Below are positions 6,275-34,087 of a DNA stretch of 36,835 nt, piece by piece. Every line of letters begins with the position of its first letter. The first letter of the stretch is position 1. The stretch comes from Promethearchaeia archaeon (GTDB taxonomy: Archaea; Asgardarchaeota; Lokiarchaeia; Sigyniarchaeales; SOKP01), in the NCBI GenBank assembly GCA_029856125.1, contig JAHQWJ010000061.1, positions 1 through 36,835 on the forward strand, read 5' to 3'. The notes beneath the pieces were generated by a model, which did not search any database, was not told the origin of the DNA, and was given only the letters and a program-made list of their open reading frames with translations. Both the position numbers and the translations under genes were made by a program.

Positions 6275-7396
6275 TTAAGATTTATTTATTTTATTATTTG
6301 TCATTCTCCTAAGCAAGTCAATTTTTTTTGCCTTCCATTCCGTAATTGTAGACTTCTTAGGAGTAAATTTATCAATATAGCCTGCAACCATTGCATTTTT
6401 GATAAGTTCTTCACCTTTTTCGGTGCGTATTACAACCATTGAATTTTGTTGAACTGCCCCGGAACCACCAAAGCTCACATCAGAAAATCTGCTTGTGAAC
6501 TCATCGCAATCATGGCAATGACTTCTTACAGCATCGTCAAACTTATGGAGTTCGACTTCATAAACTTTATTTTCATTATTTGTTATGAAAAAATTCTTTT
6601 TTATGTTCATCTTAGCTATACTTGTTGGATCTTCGTTAGTCTCCTTTTTCACTAGCTGGAACAATTTCTCATAATCAAAGTTTTCCATACAAAACAAACC
6701 AAAGACGTATTTAATGACATGGGCAGGGCTGATACTTAATAGTTGCATTTTTCGGACAGCTCTACACTGACAAGGAGTTCCAACAAAGGCCATACGAATT
6801 TGATTTATATCATAAATTTGATGATGCTTTTCAACAATTTCCTGCGCAATAGTATAAAGATCTGCTAGAGGTAAAATGTTTGACGATATTGAATATCTTG
6901 TCCCTGAAGATTTCAATAGTTCCTCTTTGTTGTATATGATTTTTGGAATCGGTTTTAATTTCTCGTCATATTCAGACACAATAGCGGCATCAATTTTATT
7001 TTTATCAAATAAATACGACAGAAGAGTGGTTACTAAACCTCCATCTTGTCCCATTTCTTTTATTTTTTCATCCTTTGTTTTTGCCGCAATTACATTTTGA
7101 ATAAACCCAATCTCATCTTTGATTCGATAATCCTCCTTTAAATGTTTCATCAACGGTTCTGTTTGCGGACAGATATAATAACATACTCCACATTCTTTAC
7201 AATTTTCAACATTCGCATCTGAAATGAATTGAGGCGTATATCCTTCCATTTTGATAACATCAAAAGTCTGGCTTGAACAATAAGCTACGCAAGCGCCACA
7301 AGCACAACACTTATTAGCTTTAATGATTTCCTCCTCAAGATCCTTGAAGACTTTAACATCTTTTAATACTGTTTTTTTGGGTAATACATCTGCCAT
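6275..7396 (-). CDS. Coenzyme F420 hydrogenase/dehydrogenase beta subunit family (FrhB/FdhB/FpoF-like) with N-terminal 2x[4Fe-4S]
   Basis: CCACGACVAYC and CKECGVCYYICP; GQDGGLVT, FVGTPCQ, GLFCMENF, CHDC, DVSFG motifs. Confidence 0.9.
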   Translation of the reverse strand: MADVLPKKTVLKDVKVFKDLEEEIIKANKCCACGACVAYCSSQTFDVIKMEGYTPQFISDANVENCKECGVCYYICPQTEPLMKHLKEDYRIKDEIGFIQNVIAAKTKDEKIKEMGQDGGLVTTLLSYLFDKNKIDAAIVSEYDEKLKPIPKIIYNKEELLKSSGTRYSISSNILPLADLYTIAQEIVEKHHQIYDINQIRMAFVGTPCQCRAVRKMQLLSISPAHVIKYVFGLFCMENFDYEKLFQLVKKETNEDPTSIAKMNIKKNFFITNNENKVYEVELHKFDDAVRSHCHDCDEFTSRFSDVSFGGSGAVQQNSMVVIRTEKGEELIKNAMVAGYIDKFTPKKSTITEWKAKKIDLLRRMTNNKINKS

Positions 7397-7452
7397 AAAA
7401 TATCAATTCCTCTAATAATTCCTGAATATTTTTTATATTTTTATTGTGAATT

Positions 7453-8328
7453 TCAAACTGTAAAGTTAATACTTTCAAATAGTTTACTTGGTTTTATCCT
7501 GTGAAATTTGAAACCTAACTCTTCTGGTACGAAACCAAAAGCCAATGCAATTAACTCTGAGAGATAGAAAATAGGGAAATCATATTCTGAATTGTTTTTT
7601 TTATTGAGTTCTCGTTGGTTAAACTCAAATTGTTGATAGCAAGCAGGACACACTACAACAACACAATTAGCTCCTGAATCTTTAATAGCTTTCAATTTGT
7701 TATCAATCATCTGCAAAGATAAATCTTTATCTGATTTTTCTACAGGGTTTCCACAACATTCCATCTTTAAATCGTAATTAATAGATTGAGCTCCAAGATT
7801 TTCAACAATTTCATCTAAAGTAACTGGTTCGAAAGGATCGTCCCATTCAATAATTTCTGAAGGTCTTAAATAATGACAACCGTAATGAACCGCAACCTTA
7901 AAGCCTTCTAGTGGTTTTTCAACATTATCTTTAACTTTATCGAGATTTTCATATAATACCTGAGCAAAGTGTTTTACTTCTACTTTACCATCATAAACTT
8001 TTCCTACTTTGTTTAAGTAGTCATTTACTTCTTTCTTAACATCGTCATCCTTGTTTAGACTATAGTTAACGCCCTTTAAAGTTTCAACACAACCAGAACA
8101 AAACGATATTATCCCACCATTACTGTCGCTCAAACTTAAATTTCTCGCCCCTAAAGTCAGCCAAGTCTTATGATCTATTTGTTCAATCCCTGTTGGGTCA
8201 GGACAACAACTGAAGCCATCAATATCGCGCAATTCAATACCAAGTTTTTCAAAAATCTTCCTTGAAGATACTTCTAAATAAGGTAATCTTGCAGGTATAA
8301 CGCACCCTAGAAATAAGTCAAATACCAT
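7453..8328 (-). CDS. hdrB: Heterodisulfide reductase subunit B (CCG domains)
   Basis: FLGCVIP, FSCCPDP, CSGC, AVHYGCHYLRPS, ECCGNP, CPACYQQFE motifs. Confidence 0.95.
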   Translation of the reverse strand: MVFDLFLGCVIPARLPYLEVSSRKIFEKLGIELRDIDGFSCCPDPTGIEQIDHKTWLTLGARNLSLSDSNGGIISFCSGCVETLKGVNYSLNKDDDVKKEVNDYLNKVGKVYDGKVEVKHFAQVLYENLDKVKDNVEKPLEGFKVAVHYGCHYLRPSEIIEWDDPFEPVTLDEIVENLGAQSINYDLKMECCGNPVEKSDKDLSLQMIDNKLKAIKDSGANCVVVVCPACYQQFEFNQRELNKKNNSEYDFPIFYLSELIALAFGFVPEELGFKFHRIKPSKLFESINFTV

Positions 8329-29867: not shown

Positions 29868-30031
29868 CATTACCCCGTTTATATCTCACATCATTAGTTT
29901 TTTTATTTTTTGTTTGTATATAATTTTCTGCTGCTTTATAAAAATATATTTGATACATTCATTTTGATGGTCTGATGTATTAATATAGAAAAAGATATAA
30001 ATTACCCAGAGTTAAAAATATTTGAATATCT

Positions 30032-30817
30032 ATGCTAAAAACATACATTTTCGACGAAGCTAATAAAAATTGGATTGAAGAGCGATCAAGTTTGCTTTAC
30101 CACGATCTTTGCGCACTTCTGGACGAGGAACGTAATATAATTTACATATGGAACGGACCAAAAAGTTCTCAAGAAAGATTAAAAAAAGGATACGATCTAT
30201 TAAAAAAACTAGTTTCTAATTACCCCAATATTAATTTTCAAATCTCTGAAGTGAATAAAAAAGTTCCAGATTATGTTCAGATTAAAATAGACAAAATGTT
30301 GAGTGAAATAAAGCAAGAAGATAAAAAAAAAAACGATAAATTTTCAAGATTTATTACCCTAAGGCTTTATTTCATTTTTTCAATCCCAGCATTAATCTTT
30401 CCAATAATCTCATTTCTAAATCTAAGTACTTCGTTAGCTTGGAGAAAAACGGGATATAATTATGAAGTGAGTTCAGGACTCTATGATAATTGGCTTTCGA
30501 TTTCTTTATTATTTATAGTCCTTACAATAATTTCCTTTGCGATTATCTTAACTATAGGTATCATCGAAATCGATTACAAAATAATAACTTATTCAATTAT
30601 AGGACTTGTAGTTTCCAGTGGAATTGCTATTTATCTCCAACAAGGAATATTCTTGTTTTTATTTCAAGATGGATCAACAGCTTCAATCTACTATATTAAA
30701 CAAAGCGACATACTACAATTTCTTGTAGTAATCGTTTTTGGAATCGTAATATATGAAATACCAAATCTTGTAGAATTTATCAATTTCACCATAGTTTATC
30801 ATAAATTTATTCTTTAA
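30032..30817 (+). CDS. Membrane protein: N-terminal gelsolin-like domain + about 4 TM helices
   Basis: DLCALLDEERNIIYIWNGPKSS matches the gelsolin-repeat pattern D-h-h-h-h-D...I-Y-I-W-x-G-x-x-S; four hydrophobic segments in the C-terminal half. Confidence 0.7.
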   Translation: MLKTYIFDEANKNWIEERSSLLYHDLCALLDEERNIIYIWNGPKSSQERLKKGYDLLKKLVSNYPNINFQISEVNKKVPDYVQIKIDKMLSEIKQEDKKKNDKFSRFITLRLYFIFSIPALIFPIISFLNLSTSLAWRKTGYNYEVSSGLYDNWLSISLLFIVLTIISFAIILTIGIIEIDYKIITYSIIGLVVSSGIAIYLQQGIFLFLFQDGSTASIYYIKQSDILQFLVVIVFGIVIYEIPNLVEFINFTIVYHKFIL

Positions 30818-30855: not shown

Positions 30856-31737
30856 ATGTCCAAAGCAGCGAAAATTCTTCCCGATCTAGAGAAGGAAGAC
30901 CTAAGAATTTTAATGGCAATTGAGATCGGTATGAAACGATCAGAATTTGTTACAATAAATAACATTAAATTCTATTCAAGGTACCTTATGGAAGAGACTT
31001 TATTTCGTCTTAAAAAGGTTCATAAATTAGATTTAATAATAAGAGATTCTTCTAAAAACGAAGTAGGCTATACTCTCAATTCAGTTGGTTATGATGTCTT
31101 AGCTCTTCATGCCTTAGTAGAAAAAGAGATAATTGGACAATTAGGACCATTGATTGGAAAAGGAAAAGAATCAGATGTTTATGGATGTATGGATGATAAT
31201 GGGAATATCTTCGCATTAAAAATTTATCGAATTGGGAGAACTAGCTTTAAAAGCATTAAAAGGCTAAGGAGCTTCCTTGGAAATCGAAAACACGCGTCTT
31301 GGTTGTATGTAAATAGACTTGCTGCTAAAAAAGAATATGACGCACTAAACAAGATTTATGAACTTAAATTAGACACACCCAAACCAATTGGGTTTAATAG
31401 ACACATAATAGTTATGTCTTACTTAAGAGGAAAAGAATTAGCCTATCATAGCAAAATTAAAAACCCAATTAAAATGTTTAACAAAATTATCAAGCAAGTT
31501 AAAATAATTTACCAAAAAGCAAAAATGATACACGGAGATCTTGGAGAATTCAATATTGTTGTAGATCATAAAGATAATATCTTAATTATTGATTGGTTAC
31601 AATGGGTTCCTTCAGATCATCCAAATGCAAATTCCCTGTTAGAAAGAGATATAAGAAATGTGTGTAACTTCTTTCAAAAGAAATACCATATAGAAAGCAA
31701 CCCTGTAGAGATTATTCAATCATTTGAAAAAAAGTAA
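30856..31737 (+). CDS. rio2: RIO2-type serine/threonine kinase
   Basis: N-terminal wHTH (AIEIGMK...GYDVLAL), GKGKESDVY, GRTSFK, IHGDLGEFNI, IDWLQ. Confidence 0.93.
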   Translation: MSKAAKILPDLEKEDLRILMAIEIGMKRSEFVTINNIKFYSRYLMEETLFRLKKVHKLDLIIRDSSKNEVGYTLNSVGYDVLALHALVEKEIIGQLGPLIGKGKESDVYGCMDDNGNIFALKIYRIGRTSFKSIKRLRSFLGNRKHASWLYVNRLAAKKEYDALNKIYELKLDTPKPIGFNRHIIVMSYLRGKELAYHSKIKNPIKMFNKIIKQVKIIYQKAKMIHGDLGEFNIVVDHKDNILIIDWLQWVPSDHPNANSLLERDIRNVCNFFQKKYHIESNPVEIIQSFEKK

Positions 31738-31872: not shown

Positions 31873-32751
31873 TTAACTATAATTATGGTCCGCGATAATT
31901 AATACCTGATGTTCTGGAACAAGGGGTTCACTAATTCCAACATATTTATTTTCAATTACATTAAATCCATATAATTTCAGAATTTTTTTCCATCCTTCCA
32001 GCTTAAGAAAATTAAGAGGTACATTGATATCTTCGTCTCCAATTACTCGATTGTAAAACCAATCAAAAAAACTATTAGTCATACTTATATCATCTTCCTC
32101 AATATAGGCTTCTATAATTACTAAGCGTTTTTTGGTTATTCTCGTTGCTTCCTTCAATAGATGTTCGGGGTCACTCGCATGATGCAACACAGTATATAAA
32201 ATAGTAGTATCTACTTCCCCATCTGCTAAAGGTATCTGTTCCTCTGGATTATATAAGATTAATGGTAAGTCTGTATAATTATAATCCACAATATCAACCA
32301 GTACGACTTCTTTCTTAAGTTGTTTTTTTATTTCTAACGCTAAAAGACCATCTCCCGCACCAAGATCAAGTATCTTCTCTCCTACGATGTAGTCTTCTAC
32401 TAATTCAAAACTCCTTTTTACACGTTTAATTGCATTACCCTTTCGATCTTTTTCATTATCGACGCGTTTTCTGAGAAACTTTCGCAGTGTTTCTTCAACC
32501 TTAATAAGAGGTATTCCTTTTTTCAGGCCTTTAGTTATGGTTCTGTTTACATATAACCAAAAAATATATCTTTTAAGAAAATTTAGATTAGCATTTTTCA
32601 TGGCAGATAAAAATAATGACTGGATCTCATTCCAATAGTGCTTGTTTTTTTTGTTTTTCTTAGAAAATACTGGATATATGAGATCTTCCACAACATCTAT
32701 ATCGTTTTGATTAGTAGGTTTGTAAAATTTAATTATATCTTCTTGAATCAT
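31873..32751 (-). CDS. Class I SAM-dependent methyltransferase with N-terminal extension
   Basis: ILDLGAGDG, VDIVDY, VLHHASDPEHLLKEA. Confidence 0.88.
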   Translation of the reverse strand: MIQEDIIKFYKPTNQNDIDVVEDLIYPVFSKKNKKNKHYWNEIQSLFLSAMKNANLNFLKRYIFWLYVNRTITKGLKKGIPLIKVEETLRKFLRKRVDNEKDRKGNAIKRVKRSFELVEDYIVGEKILDLGAGDGLLALEIKKQLKKEVVLVDIVDYNYTDLPLILYNPEEQIPLADGEVDTTILYTVLHHASDPEHLLKEATRITKKRLVIIEAYIEEDDISMTNSFFDWFYNRVIGDEDINVPLNFLKLEGWKKILKLYGFNVIENKYVGISEPLVPEHQVLIIADHNYS

Positions 32752-33466: not shown

Positions 33467-34087
33467 TCAAATGTTTCCCTCAATAATGTTATTTTTATTT
33501 AGACTACCTTGAATAATCACATCTTCTATATTCTTTAAAAACTCAGTTTTAAGGTCTATTGTAAGTGTTTTTAAATATGCTATTAAATCATCTACTTTCA
33601 ATTGTTTTCGTAAGATTGATAACTTTAAAAGCGAATTCTTCCGACCAACTCGAATTAATTCACCCAAACCTTTCTTTATGACTGGTAAATTTTGGAGCGA
33701 TGTGATTGAAAAAATTACATTAAAAGTATCTTGTCTTAGCGGTAAGTTTTCGATATCTCCTAAAATTAGATTTATATCTTCAATATCTTTTATTTTTTTA
33801 GATTTGTCACAAAAGTTCATTAGCATTTTCCAAGAAATATCTATTCCAATATATTTGACCTTCTTCTTTAGATTATCGATATTTAAGTTAAAAACATGTT
33901 CAATTAATAGGCCTGTACCACAACCAGCATCTAGAATGGTTTTATAATTTAAATTACAATTTCTAAAAAGAATTTTATACTTTTCTTTTTGGATTTTACG
34001 ATATCTATCATCATAAAAGCTTGCAGTTGAATTATATTTGGCGATAATATTTTTTTTTCTCTCTGAATCTTTAGTTGGAGGTTTCAA
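33467..34087 (-). CDS. Class I SAM-dependent methyltransferase
   Basis: YNSTASFYDDRY, ILDAGCGTG, GIDIS, GDIENLP. Confidence 0.9.
   Translation of the reverse strand: MKPPTKDSERKKNIIAKYNSTASFYDDRYRKIQKEKYKILFRNCNLNYKTILDAGCGTGLLIEHVFNLNIDNLKKKVKYIGIDISWKMLMNFCDKSKKIKDIEDINLILGDIENLPLRQDTFNVIFSITSLQNLPVIKKGLGELIRVGRKNSLLKLSILRKQLKVDDLIAYLKTLTIDLKTEFLKNIEDVIIQGSLNKNNIIEGNI

What the first reader, a model, noticed from the sequence alone, without database searches (positions are those of the whole stretch)
30032..30817. Gelsolin-like domain fused to a four-TM membrane domain
Seen: residues ~1-95 carry DLCALLDEERNIIYIWNGPKSS followed by a long helix, the pattern of a gelsolin repeat; then come a charged linker and four hydrophobic segments. 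Known: Asgard archaea have actin and soluble gelsolin-type regulators. Inference: this may be an integral membrane actin tether or regulator, relevant to Loki protrusions. The gene sits 38 nt upstream of rio2 on the same strand. The first loop (AW...SGLY) faintly recalls the W...GLW motif of claudin/PMP22 tetraspans but lacks their Cys.
Basis: partly seen in the sequence, partly recalled or inferred. Interest (0 to 1): 0.7.

Follow-up and report, generated by a model that had tools for sequence, protein, structure and literature searches.

The report
Membrane-embedded gelsolin-fold protein of Lokiarchaeia
This Asgard-archaeal gene joins a genuine gelsolin-type domain (the fold that regulates actin) on the cytoplasmic side to a four-helix membrane module of no known family, so it could link the archaeal actin skeleton to the membrane; actin binding is untested, and the usual hydrophobic contact on the binding helix is missing.

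Summary
ORF 30032-30817 (+) encodes 261 aa, and rio2 starts 38 nt downstream.

**N-terminal domain (residues 1-95).** It is a gelsolin domain.
- A family profile hits only gelsolin-family chains in the PDB; the best is Thorarchaeota ProGel 7c2f_B (E 7.8e-5).
- The AlphaFold2 model (pLDDT 89) matches ProGel by Foldseek (E 5.9e-5, target TM 0.69).
- hhalign gives 97% probability to a 92-aa ProGel-like protein of Ca. Lokiarchaeum ossiferum.

**Membrane module (residues 107-260).** It forms a confident four-helix bundle (pLDDT 94) with a small outer beta-sheet. It has no specific structural or sequence relative, and I found no claudin/PMP22 similarity. The positive-inside rule places the gelsolin domain in the cytoplasm.

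**Distribution.** The two-domain layout is constant and confined to one order: 111/134, 13/14 and 3/4 genomes in three families, against 2/248 elsewhere in the phylum. That order includes L. ossiferum (UYP46179.1, annotated hypothetical).

**Actin binding is unproven.** The hydrophobic positions that soluble ProGel/GelX types keep on the long helix are Lys/Gln here.

This scan has already reported the same family in at least 9 other genomes. New here: a paralogous gelsolin+4TM family lies next to a CDP-alcohol phosphatidyltransferase in 9 of 9 loci examined.

The parts
30032..30817 (+). Whole gene, 261 aa: gelsolin-fold domain plus four-helix membrane module
   Evidence: ORF list and translation; 116 homologous clusters of the same length; AF2 model pLDDT 89.2
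30032..30316 (+). Residues 1-95: ProGel-type gelsolin domain (strands 2-8, 13-16, 26-31, 36-41; long helix 47-62; strand 70-73; helix 80-98). Invariant within the family: W14, E16, D31, W40, G42, P79, L90
   Evidence: Pfam Gelsolin E 0.0034, 17.6 bits, below the 21-bit cut-off; profile vs PDB: 7c2f_B E 7.8e-5, villin 7.9e-5, gelsolin 9e-4; Foldseek 7c2f_B E 5.9e-5, TM 0.69, top 50 all gelsolin family; hhalign 97.1% to the L. ossiferum ProGel-like protein
30317..30349 (+). Residues 96-106: short basic linker, low model confidence; it ties the domain within about 10 residues of the membrane
   Evidence: pLDDT <50 at 96-101; mean K+R 3.9 in 96-111 across 44 sequences
30350..30439 (+). TM helix 1 (residues 107-136)
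   Evidence: AF2 models; hydropathy
30440..30472 (+). Outer loop 1 (137-147) with a beta-hairpin; W137 nearly invariant
   Evidence: DSSP strands 138-140 and 143-147; conservation
30473..30568 (+). TM helix 2 (148-179), ending in the invariant E179 at the cytoplasmic turn; W154 invariant
30575..30655 (+). TM helix 3 (182-208), carrying the conserved YLQQGIFLF motif
30656..30700 (+). Outer loop 2 (209-223): invariant F209 and F211, Q212, strand 219-223 that joins the loop-1 hairpin
30701..30811 (+). TM helix 4 and basic C-terminal tail (224-260); invariant D226 and Y256, P244-N245 nearly invariant
29868..30031 (+). Intergenic region after POR-beta: a T-rich run at about 29898-29917 and a TATA-like TATAAAT at about 29996-30002. 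Reading these as a terminator and an own promoter is inference in an AT-rich genome
   Evidence: Sequence read directly
30856..31737 (+). rio2 (RIO-type kinase), 38 nt downstream on the same strand; a conserved neighbour
   Evidence: Pfam. rio2 lies within 300 nt downstream on the same strand in 16 of 20 genomes from at least 12 genera; it overlaps the gene by 4 nt in L013
28968..29867 (+). 2-oxoacid:ferredoxin oxidoreductase beta subunit, the conserved upstream neighbour
   Evidence: TPP_enzyme_C in the syntenic loci; upstream on the same strand in 20 of 20 genomes

Best explanation
The gene encodes an integral membrane protein. Its N-terminal 95 residues form a single ProGel-type gelsolin domain on the cytoplasmic face. 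A roughly 10-residue basic linker holds that domain against the membrane, ahead of a conserved four-helix transmembrane bundle with a small beta-sheet on the outer face. The most likely role is a membrane docking site for the Lokiactin cytoskeleton. In this reading the gelsolin domain binds actin filaments or monomers weakly, in a ProGel/cofilin-like and probably largely electrostatic manner, and confinement in the membrane plane supplies avidity. The TM module carries conserved polar residues (E179, Q203, Q204, Q212, D226, N245), so it is more than an anchor: it may pair with other membrane components or sense the outside. Shown here: the gene is real, the gelsolin fold, four predicted TM helices, and lineage-wide conservation of the fusion. 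Inferred: the N-in topology. Not shown: actin binding and any tethering. The confidence given (0.4) is for the actin-docking function; the structural description alone I hold at about 0.9.
For: - **Gelsolin homology.** The family profile hits only gelsolin-family chains in the PDB, best Thor ProGel 7c2f_B at E 7.8e-5. Foldseek gives 7c2f_B at E 5.9e-5, TM 0.69, rmsd 3.1 over 87 columns, and all top 50 hits are gelsolin, villin, adseverin or Asgard gelsolins. hhalign gives 97.1% probability, E 6.4e-11, to a 92-aa L. ossiferum protein that UniRef names gelsolin-like.
- **Motifs.** The D...W-x-G motif that separates gelsolins from cofilins (PMC7444086) is invariant here: D31, W40, G42. The long helix shares G, K-L and N-Y-P with ProGel at identical spacing from the Trp.
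- **ProGel precedent.** ProGel binds rabbit actin in the crystal and bundles filaments (PMC7444086).
- **Topology.** There is no N-terminal hydrophobic segment. K+R average 3.9 in the linker and 2.4 in the C-tail against 0.8 in each outer loop.
- **Constant fusion.** The TM-domain profile run against 1.84 billion representatives finds 52 proteins. All are this family, and in full-length hits the TM part starts near residue 100.
- **Both halves conserved.** Mean column identity is 62% for the N-domain and 59% for the TM module.
- **Genomic setting.** The genome encodes Lokiactin (441.7 bits to Pfam Actin, about 60% identical to eukaryotic actins) and four soluble gelsolin-domain proteins. This is the only gelsolin-domain protein there with TM segments.
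Against: - No binding evidence of any kind was obtained.
- Anchored on W-x-G, soluble ProGel and the genome's own GelX-type proteins keep hydrophobic residues at positions +7, +11 and +12 (L/V, L/F, M/I). This family has Q/K, K, K there. Position +15, which is Ile103 in human gelsolin G1 (from my own knowledge of the sequence), is variable and polar here.
- Across the whole order the long helix is the least conserved part of the domain, although Lokiactin is over 80% identical among these genomes.
- The closest eukaryotic domains are G3/A3-type rather than the actin-binding G1.
- The gene was not found in some near-complete genomes of the same family: genus g6 0 of 4, at 89-100% completeness.
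- The conserved neighbours (POR, rio2, a methyltransferase) have nothing to do with actin.
- The L. ossiferum orthologue is not among the five gelsolin-homology proteins reported in a Lokiactin co-IP. That study warns that it under-samples membrane proteins.
Confidence: 0.4

Rival explanations
1. The gelsolin fold is used here as a membrane-proximal adaptor or regulatory domain that does not bind actin. It would bind acidic or inositol phospholipid head-groups, a metal ion, or another protein, and so gate or regulate whatever the conserved four-helix module does (transport, sensing or assembly).
For: The hydrophobic long-helix positions of soluble relatives are replaced by a basic stripe (K44, K/Q47, K/R49, K51, K52 within the family), and a 10-residue linker holds this stripe next to the membrane. 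The residues conserved across the whole order are E16, H24-D25, G42 and P79, not the helix face. D25 sits where gelsolin domains have the Asp of the type II calcium site. The TM module is as conserved as the head and has conserved intramembrane polar residues. A paralogous gelsolin+4TM family lies beside a CDP-alcohol phosphatidyltransferase in 9 of 9 loci; one of these enzymes is listed as a phosphatidylinositol-phosphate synthase in L. ossiferum.
Against: The basic stripe is not conserved in the more distant family that includes L. ossiferum. The lipid-synthase linkage belongs to the paralogue, not to this gene. No ligand site was identified. The nearest characterised relative, ProGel, does bind actin.
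Confidence: 0.33
2. The protein works with Rio2 in small-subunit ribosome maturation or its regulation, as suggested by the operon-like arrangement.
For: rio2 follows on the same strand within 300 nt in 16 of 20 genomes from at least 12 genera. The gap is 12 nt in L011 and the genes overlap by 4 nt in L013. A methyltransferase follows on the opposite strand.
Against: In the family that contains the cultured strains, the orthologue lies next to a TFB-like gene and RtcB (L. ossiferum, L020) or a methyltransferase (L016), and no rio2 was seen in the few kilobases read around it. In L012 a HEAT-like gene replaces rio2. Nothing in a membrane-embedded gelsolin fold suggests ribosome biogenesis. The neighbours evolve much more slowly (55-83% identity against 35-50%), which fits frozen gene order.
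Confidence: 0.05
3. The membrane half is a claudin/PMP22-like tetraspan that mediates cell-cell or cell-surface adhesion through its outer loops, with the gelsolin head as the cytoskeletal adaptor.
For: It has four TM helices with both ends inside, and a small beta-sheet built from the first and second outer loops. That layout loosely resembles claudin-type tetraspans. W137 and W154 flank outer loop 1.
Against: No Pfam claudin/PMP22 hit at E<=1. There are no cysteines in the loop and no W-GLW-C-C motif (sequence). The outer loops are only about 11 and 15 residues long.
Confidence: 0.04

Closest known systems
Thorarchaeota ProGel (PDB 7C2F chain B; Akil et al. 2020, PMC7444086)
   Same: A single gelsolin/cofilin-type domain of about 90 residues. 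It is the best sequence-profile and structural match. It shares the D...W-x-G motif and the G, K-L and N-Y-P positions of the long helix, and it also lacks a complete calcium site.
   Different: ProGel is a soluble stand-alone protein. This domain is fused to a four-helix membrane module. ProGel's L, L, M at +7, +11, +12 after the Trp are Q/K, K, K here.
Asgard 1DGelX and 2DGel (PMC7444086, PMC9433394) and the five gelsolin-homology proteins of Ca. L. ossiferum (bioRxiv 10.1101/2025.11.30.690169)
   Same: Asgard-specific small gelsolin architectures. The same genome has four such soluble proteins.
   Different: All described architectures are soluble: ProGel, a gelsolin domain plus domain X or a disordered region, and two-domain forms with a WH2-like motif. 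None has transmembrane helices. The L. ossiferum orthologue of this gene (UYP46179.1) is not in that preprint's list.
Eukaryotic gelsolin/villin/adseverin repeats (Pfam PF00626), especially G3/A3
   Same: The same fold and core motif.
   Different: The Pfam score is below the curated cut-off (17.6 against 21 bits). It is a single repeat, the Glu of the type II calcium site is absent, and it is membrane-embedded. Eukaryotic gelsolins reach membranes only peripherally through phosphoinositides (from my own knowledge).
Functional analogues: ERM proteins and talin in eukaryotes, RodZ-MreB and ZipA/FtsA-FtsZ in bacteria (from my own knowledge)
   Same: The proposed logic is the same: a membrane-bound protein presents a cytoplasmic filament-binding domain.
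   Different: There is no sequence or fold relationship. Filament binding is demonstrated for those proteins and not for this one.

Membership tests
Gelsolin repeat (Pfam PF00626) | Score at or above Pfam's curated gathering cut-off | tested here: not met
   17.6 bits, E 0.0034, against a cut-off of 21. Only 4 of 36 family members reach even E<=0.01. This explains why the family is annotated as hypothetical.
Gelsolin repeat / ProGel-type gelsolin domain | Significant profile-level sequence similarity to proven gelsolin domains | tested here: met
   Family profile vs PDB: 7c2f_B E 7.8e-5, villin E 7.9e-5, gelsolin E 9e-4, and 22 of the first 23 hits are gelsolin family. hhalign gives 97.1% probability, E 6.4e-11, to the L. 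ossiferum ProGel-like protein.
Gelsolin repeat / ProGel-type gelsolin domain | Gelsolin fold: a mixed beta-sheet packed between a long helix and a shorter helix | tested here: met
   AF2 model pLDDT 89, with elements E-E-E-E-H-E-H. Foldseek probability is 1.00 to 7c2f_B (TM 0.69, rmsd 3.1 over 87 columns), and all 50 listed hits are gelsolin-family domains. The structure is predicted, not solved.
Gelsolin (as opposed to ADF/cofilin) | D...W-x-G motif instead of cofilin's W-P (PMC7444086) | tested here: met
   D31, W40 and G42 are invariant in 44 sequences. G42 is invariant across the whole order, and W is W or Y there.
Calcium-regulated gelsolin domains | Type II calcium site: an Asp at the start of the core strand plus a Glu at +9 from the Trp on the long helix | tested here: not met
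   The Asp equivalent, D25, is invariant in 36 of 36 sequences. Position +9 is R/K, whereas the genome's own 2DGel has Glu there in both domains. ProGel also lacks the sites.
Actin-binding gelsolin domains | Binds actin through the exposed face of the long helix | not testable with these tools
The sequence comparison shows only that the hydrophobic helix positions of soluble relatives are not kept.
Claudin/PMP22 tetraspans (Pfam PF00822) | Family profile match and the W-GLW-C-C motif in outer loop 1 | tested here: not met
   No such Pfam hit at E<=1. The loop has no Cys and no GLW.
Claudin/PMP22 tetraspans | Claudin fold: four helices plus a five-stranded outer sheet | tested here: inconclusive
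   Foldseek, VIA-align wide and the VIA re-ranking list only generic helical bundles (best Z 14.3, a de novo designed bundle) and no claudin. The model has a sheet of only about three strands.

The most novel reading that the evidence does not exclude
This protein, together with its L. ossiferum and Promethearchaeum orthologues, is the direct transmembrane link between Lokiactin filaments and the cell envelope. It would shape or anchor the actin-filled protrusions, with the conserved outer sheet and intramembrane polar residues passing information across the membrane. That would be an integrin-like or tetraspan-like actin coupling device that predates eukaryotes.
Probability: 0.15. Interest if true: 0.9.

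Novelty: new variant of a known kind. Interest (0 to 1): 0.62.

Why it matters
How Asgard archaea attach their actin filaments to the membrane is unknown, although actin-filled protrusions and actin-dependent crawling have been reported in cultured strains. All Asgard gelsolin architectures I found described are soluble. A conserved, integral-membrane gelsolin-fold protein is therefore a concrete candidate that can be tested at once. It has orthologues in cultured Ca. L. ossiferum (UYP46179.1) and in closed genomes of the same family. If it binds actin, it would be the first archaeal actin-membrane linker. If it does not, it shows the gelsolin fold recruited to a membrane function before eukaryotes. 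The separate linkage of its paralogue to an inositol-phospholipid-type synthase hints at an ancient tie between gelsolin domains and head-group lipids.

Tried and rejected
- **Complex prediction.** The job with the N-domain alignment A3 and Lokiactin alignment A4 was counted but not folded, because the actin chain looks eukaryotic.
- **Fold searches of the TM module alone.** Foldseek against the PDB gave a best E of 0.85. VIA-align wide gave only generic four-helix bundles, best Z 14.3 to a de novo designed protein. The VIA re-ranking gave the same. The ESM Atlas shape search gave CopD at TM 0.63 over a generic bundle and connexins at about 0.39. The language-model atlas returned only the protein's own cluster. 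None of these names a family.
- **Claudin/PMP22.** No support.
- **Stand-alone or larger forms.** The 'shorter' search with residues 1-100 found six fragments at 62-79% identity and no separate family. The TM profile found no other context.
- **Literature.** Searches for a membrane-anchored Asgard gelsolin found nothing. NEF87_002464 appears in no held paper.
- **L. ossiferum proteome and co-IP tables.** The accessions are absent. By gene order the orthologue should be about GNAMCCOK_02484: 02486 has the mass of the neighbouring RtcB. That id does not occur in the held part of the table, which was cut when stored, so this is uninformative.
- **Paralogue in this genome.** It was not found with a protein query, and the corresponding locus beside the phosphatidyltransferase lacks it.

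Full report
**1. The observation**

The ORF at 30032..30817 (+) is real and encodes 261 aa.
- A charged linker and hydrophobic segments follow, which the AF2 models resolve into four helices.
- The next gene, 38 nt downstream on the same strand, is rio2 (Pfam RIO1 E 2.7e-50 and Rio2_N E 2e-19).
- The word-index search returned 116 cluster representatives. Nearly all are 259-264 aa, at 37-98% identity, come from Lokiarchaeia/Promethearchaeota metagenome bins, and are named hypothetical with no Pfam domain on record.
- An alignment of 44 of them (A1) is collinear from the first Met. It has 13 invariant positions spread over both halves: W14, E16, D31, W40, G42, P79, L90, W154, E179, F209, F211, D226, Y256.

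**2. The N-terminal domain is a gelsolin domain**

- Pfam alone is not enough: Gelsolin scores E 0.0034 and 17.6 bits, below the 21-bit cut-off. Only 4 of 36 members of the wider family reach E<=0.01. This explains the lack of annotation.
- The family profile searched against all PDB sequences returns almost only gelsolin-family chains. The best are Thorarchaeota ProGel 7c2f_B (E 7.8e-5), villin (7.9e-5) and gelsolin (9e-4).
- The AlphaFold2 model built from A1 is confident (mean pLDDT 89.2). It has the order strand-strand-strand-strand-long helix-strand-helix.
- Foldseek's 50 best PDB matches to that model are all gelsolin-family domains. ProGel again leads: E 5.9e-5, target TM 0.69, rmsd 3.1 Å over 87 columns.
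- hhalign of the N-domain alignment against a 92-aa protein of Ca. Lokiarchaeum ossiferum gives 97.1% probability, E 6.4e-11, over 82 columns. That protein is UYP47970.1, which UniRef names gelsolin-like.
- The D...W-x-G signature that Akil et al. use to tell gelsolins from cofilins (PMC7444086) is invariant here.

**3. The membrane module**

- Modelled alone, residues 101-261 give pLDDT 93.9 and pTM 0.86. There are four long helices (107-136, 148-179, 182-208, 224-260 in full-length numbering). A beta-hairpin in the first outer loop pairs with a strand in the second.
- Structure searches find nothing specific:
  - Foldseek's best E is 0.85.
  - VIA-align lists generic up-down helical bundles, with a de novo design at Z 14.3. 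The tool's own note places that value within the range seen for helical models.
  - The Atlas searches add nothing.
- A profile of this module run against 1.84 billion representative proteins finds 52 proteins, all of this family. The full-length ones carry the module behind a roughly 100-residue head.
- The fusion is therefore constant, and the module is known only in this context.
- The module is as conserved as the head (59% against 62% mean column identity). It keeps polar residues within or at the ends of the helices, so I do not regard it as a passive anchor. That last step is inference.

**4. Topology**

- There is no N-terminal hydrophobic segment.
- Across 44 sequences, K+R average 3.9 in the linker and 2.4 in the C-terminal tail, against 0.8 in each of the two longer loops.
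- By the positive-inside rule, both termini and the gelsolin domain are cytoplasmic, and the small sheet faces outward. This is a prediction.

**5. Distribution and neighbourhood**

- In 400 genomes of the phylum, matches occur in 111/134, 13/14 and 3/4 genomes of three families of one order (f1, f3 and f4). Elsewhere there are only 2 in 248, both partial.
- Family f3 contains closed genomes of 6.0 and about 4.3-4.4 Mb. The 6.0-Mb genome is Ca. L. ossiferum. Its orthologue is UYP46179.1 / NEF87_002464: 283 aa, 26% identity over 236 residues, E 5e-16.
- The gene was not found in some near-complete genomes of f1, the window's own family (genus g6, 0 of 4), so it is probably dispensable.
- In 20 genomes from at least 12 genera of f1:
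  - POR-beta lies directly upstream on the same strand in 20.
  - rio2 follows within 300 nt on the same strand in 16.
  - A methyltransferase related to the window's 206-aa ORF follows on the other strand in 14.
- Gaps to rio2 range from a 4-nt overlap to 38 nt in the loci read in detail.
- In f3 the neighbours I read differ: a TFB-like gene and RtcB in L. ossiferum, a methyltransferase in another genome.
- The neighbours are far better conserved than this protein (55-83% against 35-50% identity). I read the arrangement as conserved gene order, possibly with co-transcription with rio2, and not as a functional clue.
- A T-rich run after POR-beta and a TATA-like element about 30 nt before the ATG suggest the gene has its own promoter. 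In DNA this AT-rich, that is weak evidence.

**6. Does it bind actin?**

This could not be tested. Lokiactin (P0118) scores 441.7 bits to Pfam Actin and is about 60% identical to eukaryotic actins.

What the sequence says is mixed.

In favour:
- The closest characterised relative binds actin and bundles filaments.
- The long helix shares the Gly at +13, Lys-Leu at +19/+20 and Asn-Tyr-Pro at +23 to +25 from the Trp with ProGel.

Against:
- ProGel and this genome's two GelX-type proteins keep hydrophobic residues at +7, +11 and +12 (L/V, L/F, M/I). This family has Q/K, K, K there.
- Akil et al. state that ProGel sits one helical turn away from gelsolin G1 on actin. G1's key Ile is at +15 (from my own knowledge of the sequence). 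So +11 is a plausible position for ProGel's hydrophobic contact, and it is a conserved Lys here. This step is inference.
- Across the order, the exposed helix face is the least conserved part of the domain, and the family-level basic stripe is not kept in f3.
- The residues conserved order-wide are E16, H24-D25, G42 and P79.
- D25 occupies the position of the type II calcium-site Asp, but the partner Glu at +9 is missing. The genome's own 2DGel has that Glu in both domains.

Earlier follow-ups in this scan reached a similar view. I re-derived it from my own alignments, but only at the sequence level.

**7. Verdict**

- *Structure:* a cytoplasmic ProGel-type gelsolin domain fused to a new four-helix membrane module. 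My confidence is about 0.9.
- *Function:* a Lokiactin-membrane docking protein is the best single reading at about 0.4. A non-actin adaptor or regulator, with lipid, metal or protein as ligand, follows closely at about 0.33.
- *Rio2-linked and claudin-like readings:* unlikely.
- *Novelty:* I found no description of a membrane-embedded gelsolin in the papers held. I class it as a new variant of a known kind.
- *Repeat finding:* the scan has reported the same family in at least nine other genomes.

**8. New side observation**

A paralogous family of gelsolin-like head plus four TM helices (228-277 aa; E 1e-9 to 1e-18 against the A1 profile) lies next to a CDP-alcohol phosphatidyltransferase in 9 of 9 loci examined, across all three families of the order.
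- It is directly upstream on the same strand in five loci and divergent in four.
- In L. ossiferum the gelsolin-like partner is the soluble 92-aa protein, and the neighbouring enzyme (UYP47972.1) is listed as a phosphatidylinositol-phosphate synthase in the supplement of bioRxiv 10.1101/2025.11.30.690169.
- The window's genome has that synthase but not the paralogue.

Noticed in passing
L014:1081-2512, L019:1039-2496, L024:1474-2919, L025:1324-2813, L029:1088-2534, L023:5388-6724, L026:2037-3842, L027:2102-3797, L028:1198-3066: A second, paralogous family of gelsolin-like head plus four TM helices lies next to a CDP-alcohol phosphatidyltransferase (PF01066; motif DG..AR..G...D...D) in 9 of 9 loci from three families of the order. 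In L. ossiferum the partner is a soluble 92-aa ProGel-like protein and the enzyme is listed as a PIP synthase. This suggests a gelsolin-domain/inositol-lipid link.
   Followed up: partly
L015 (G058:C98), minus-strand open frame 1383-2672: In a genome of another family, on an 8-kb contig, a 430-codon open frame joins residues 34-131 of this protein to an EamA-like multi-pass transporter. That is a truncated gelsolin domain plus the start of TM1. It is probably an assembly chimera, contamination or a rearranged pseudogene.
   Followed up: no
window 33467-34087 (-) and 31873-32751 (-): Two SAM-methyltransferase genes flank a TetR-family gene just after rio2. The 206-aa one is the conserved partner that follows rio2 on the opposite strand in 14 of 20 related genomes, and an LSM gene follows it in L011 and L013. 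Its N-terminal pattern recalls Bud23-type rRNA methyltransferases (from memory, not tested). The 292-aa methyltransferase was not found in any of the 20 related loci; the TetR gene was not searched for there.
   Followed up: partly
L001 (G000:C36:21817-22881), 355-codon frame: The genome's two-domain gelsolin carries a C-terminal extension ending in a CxxC...CxxC zinc-ribbon-like motif. The other soluble gelsolin-domain proteins (C126, C19, C94) have long charged tails. None has TM segments.
   Followed up: no
L023:3562-3936 and 6761-7819: In L. ossiferum the ProGel-like gene and the PIP synthase gene are flanked by two Ras/Arf-family small GTPase genes.
   Followed up: no
L030:1069-1365 (-) and L021:1282-1563 (+): A conserved ORF of about 95 aa (shared motifs TTTK, KF and PSKHLG in both copies) sits beside the CDP-alcohol phosphatidyltransferase both in the window's genome and in L. 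ossiferum. Function unknown.
   Followed up: no
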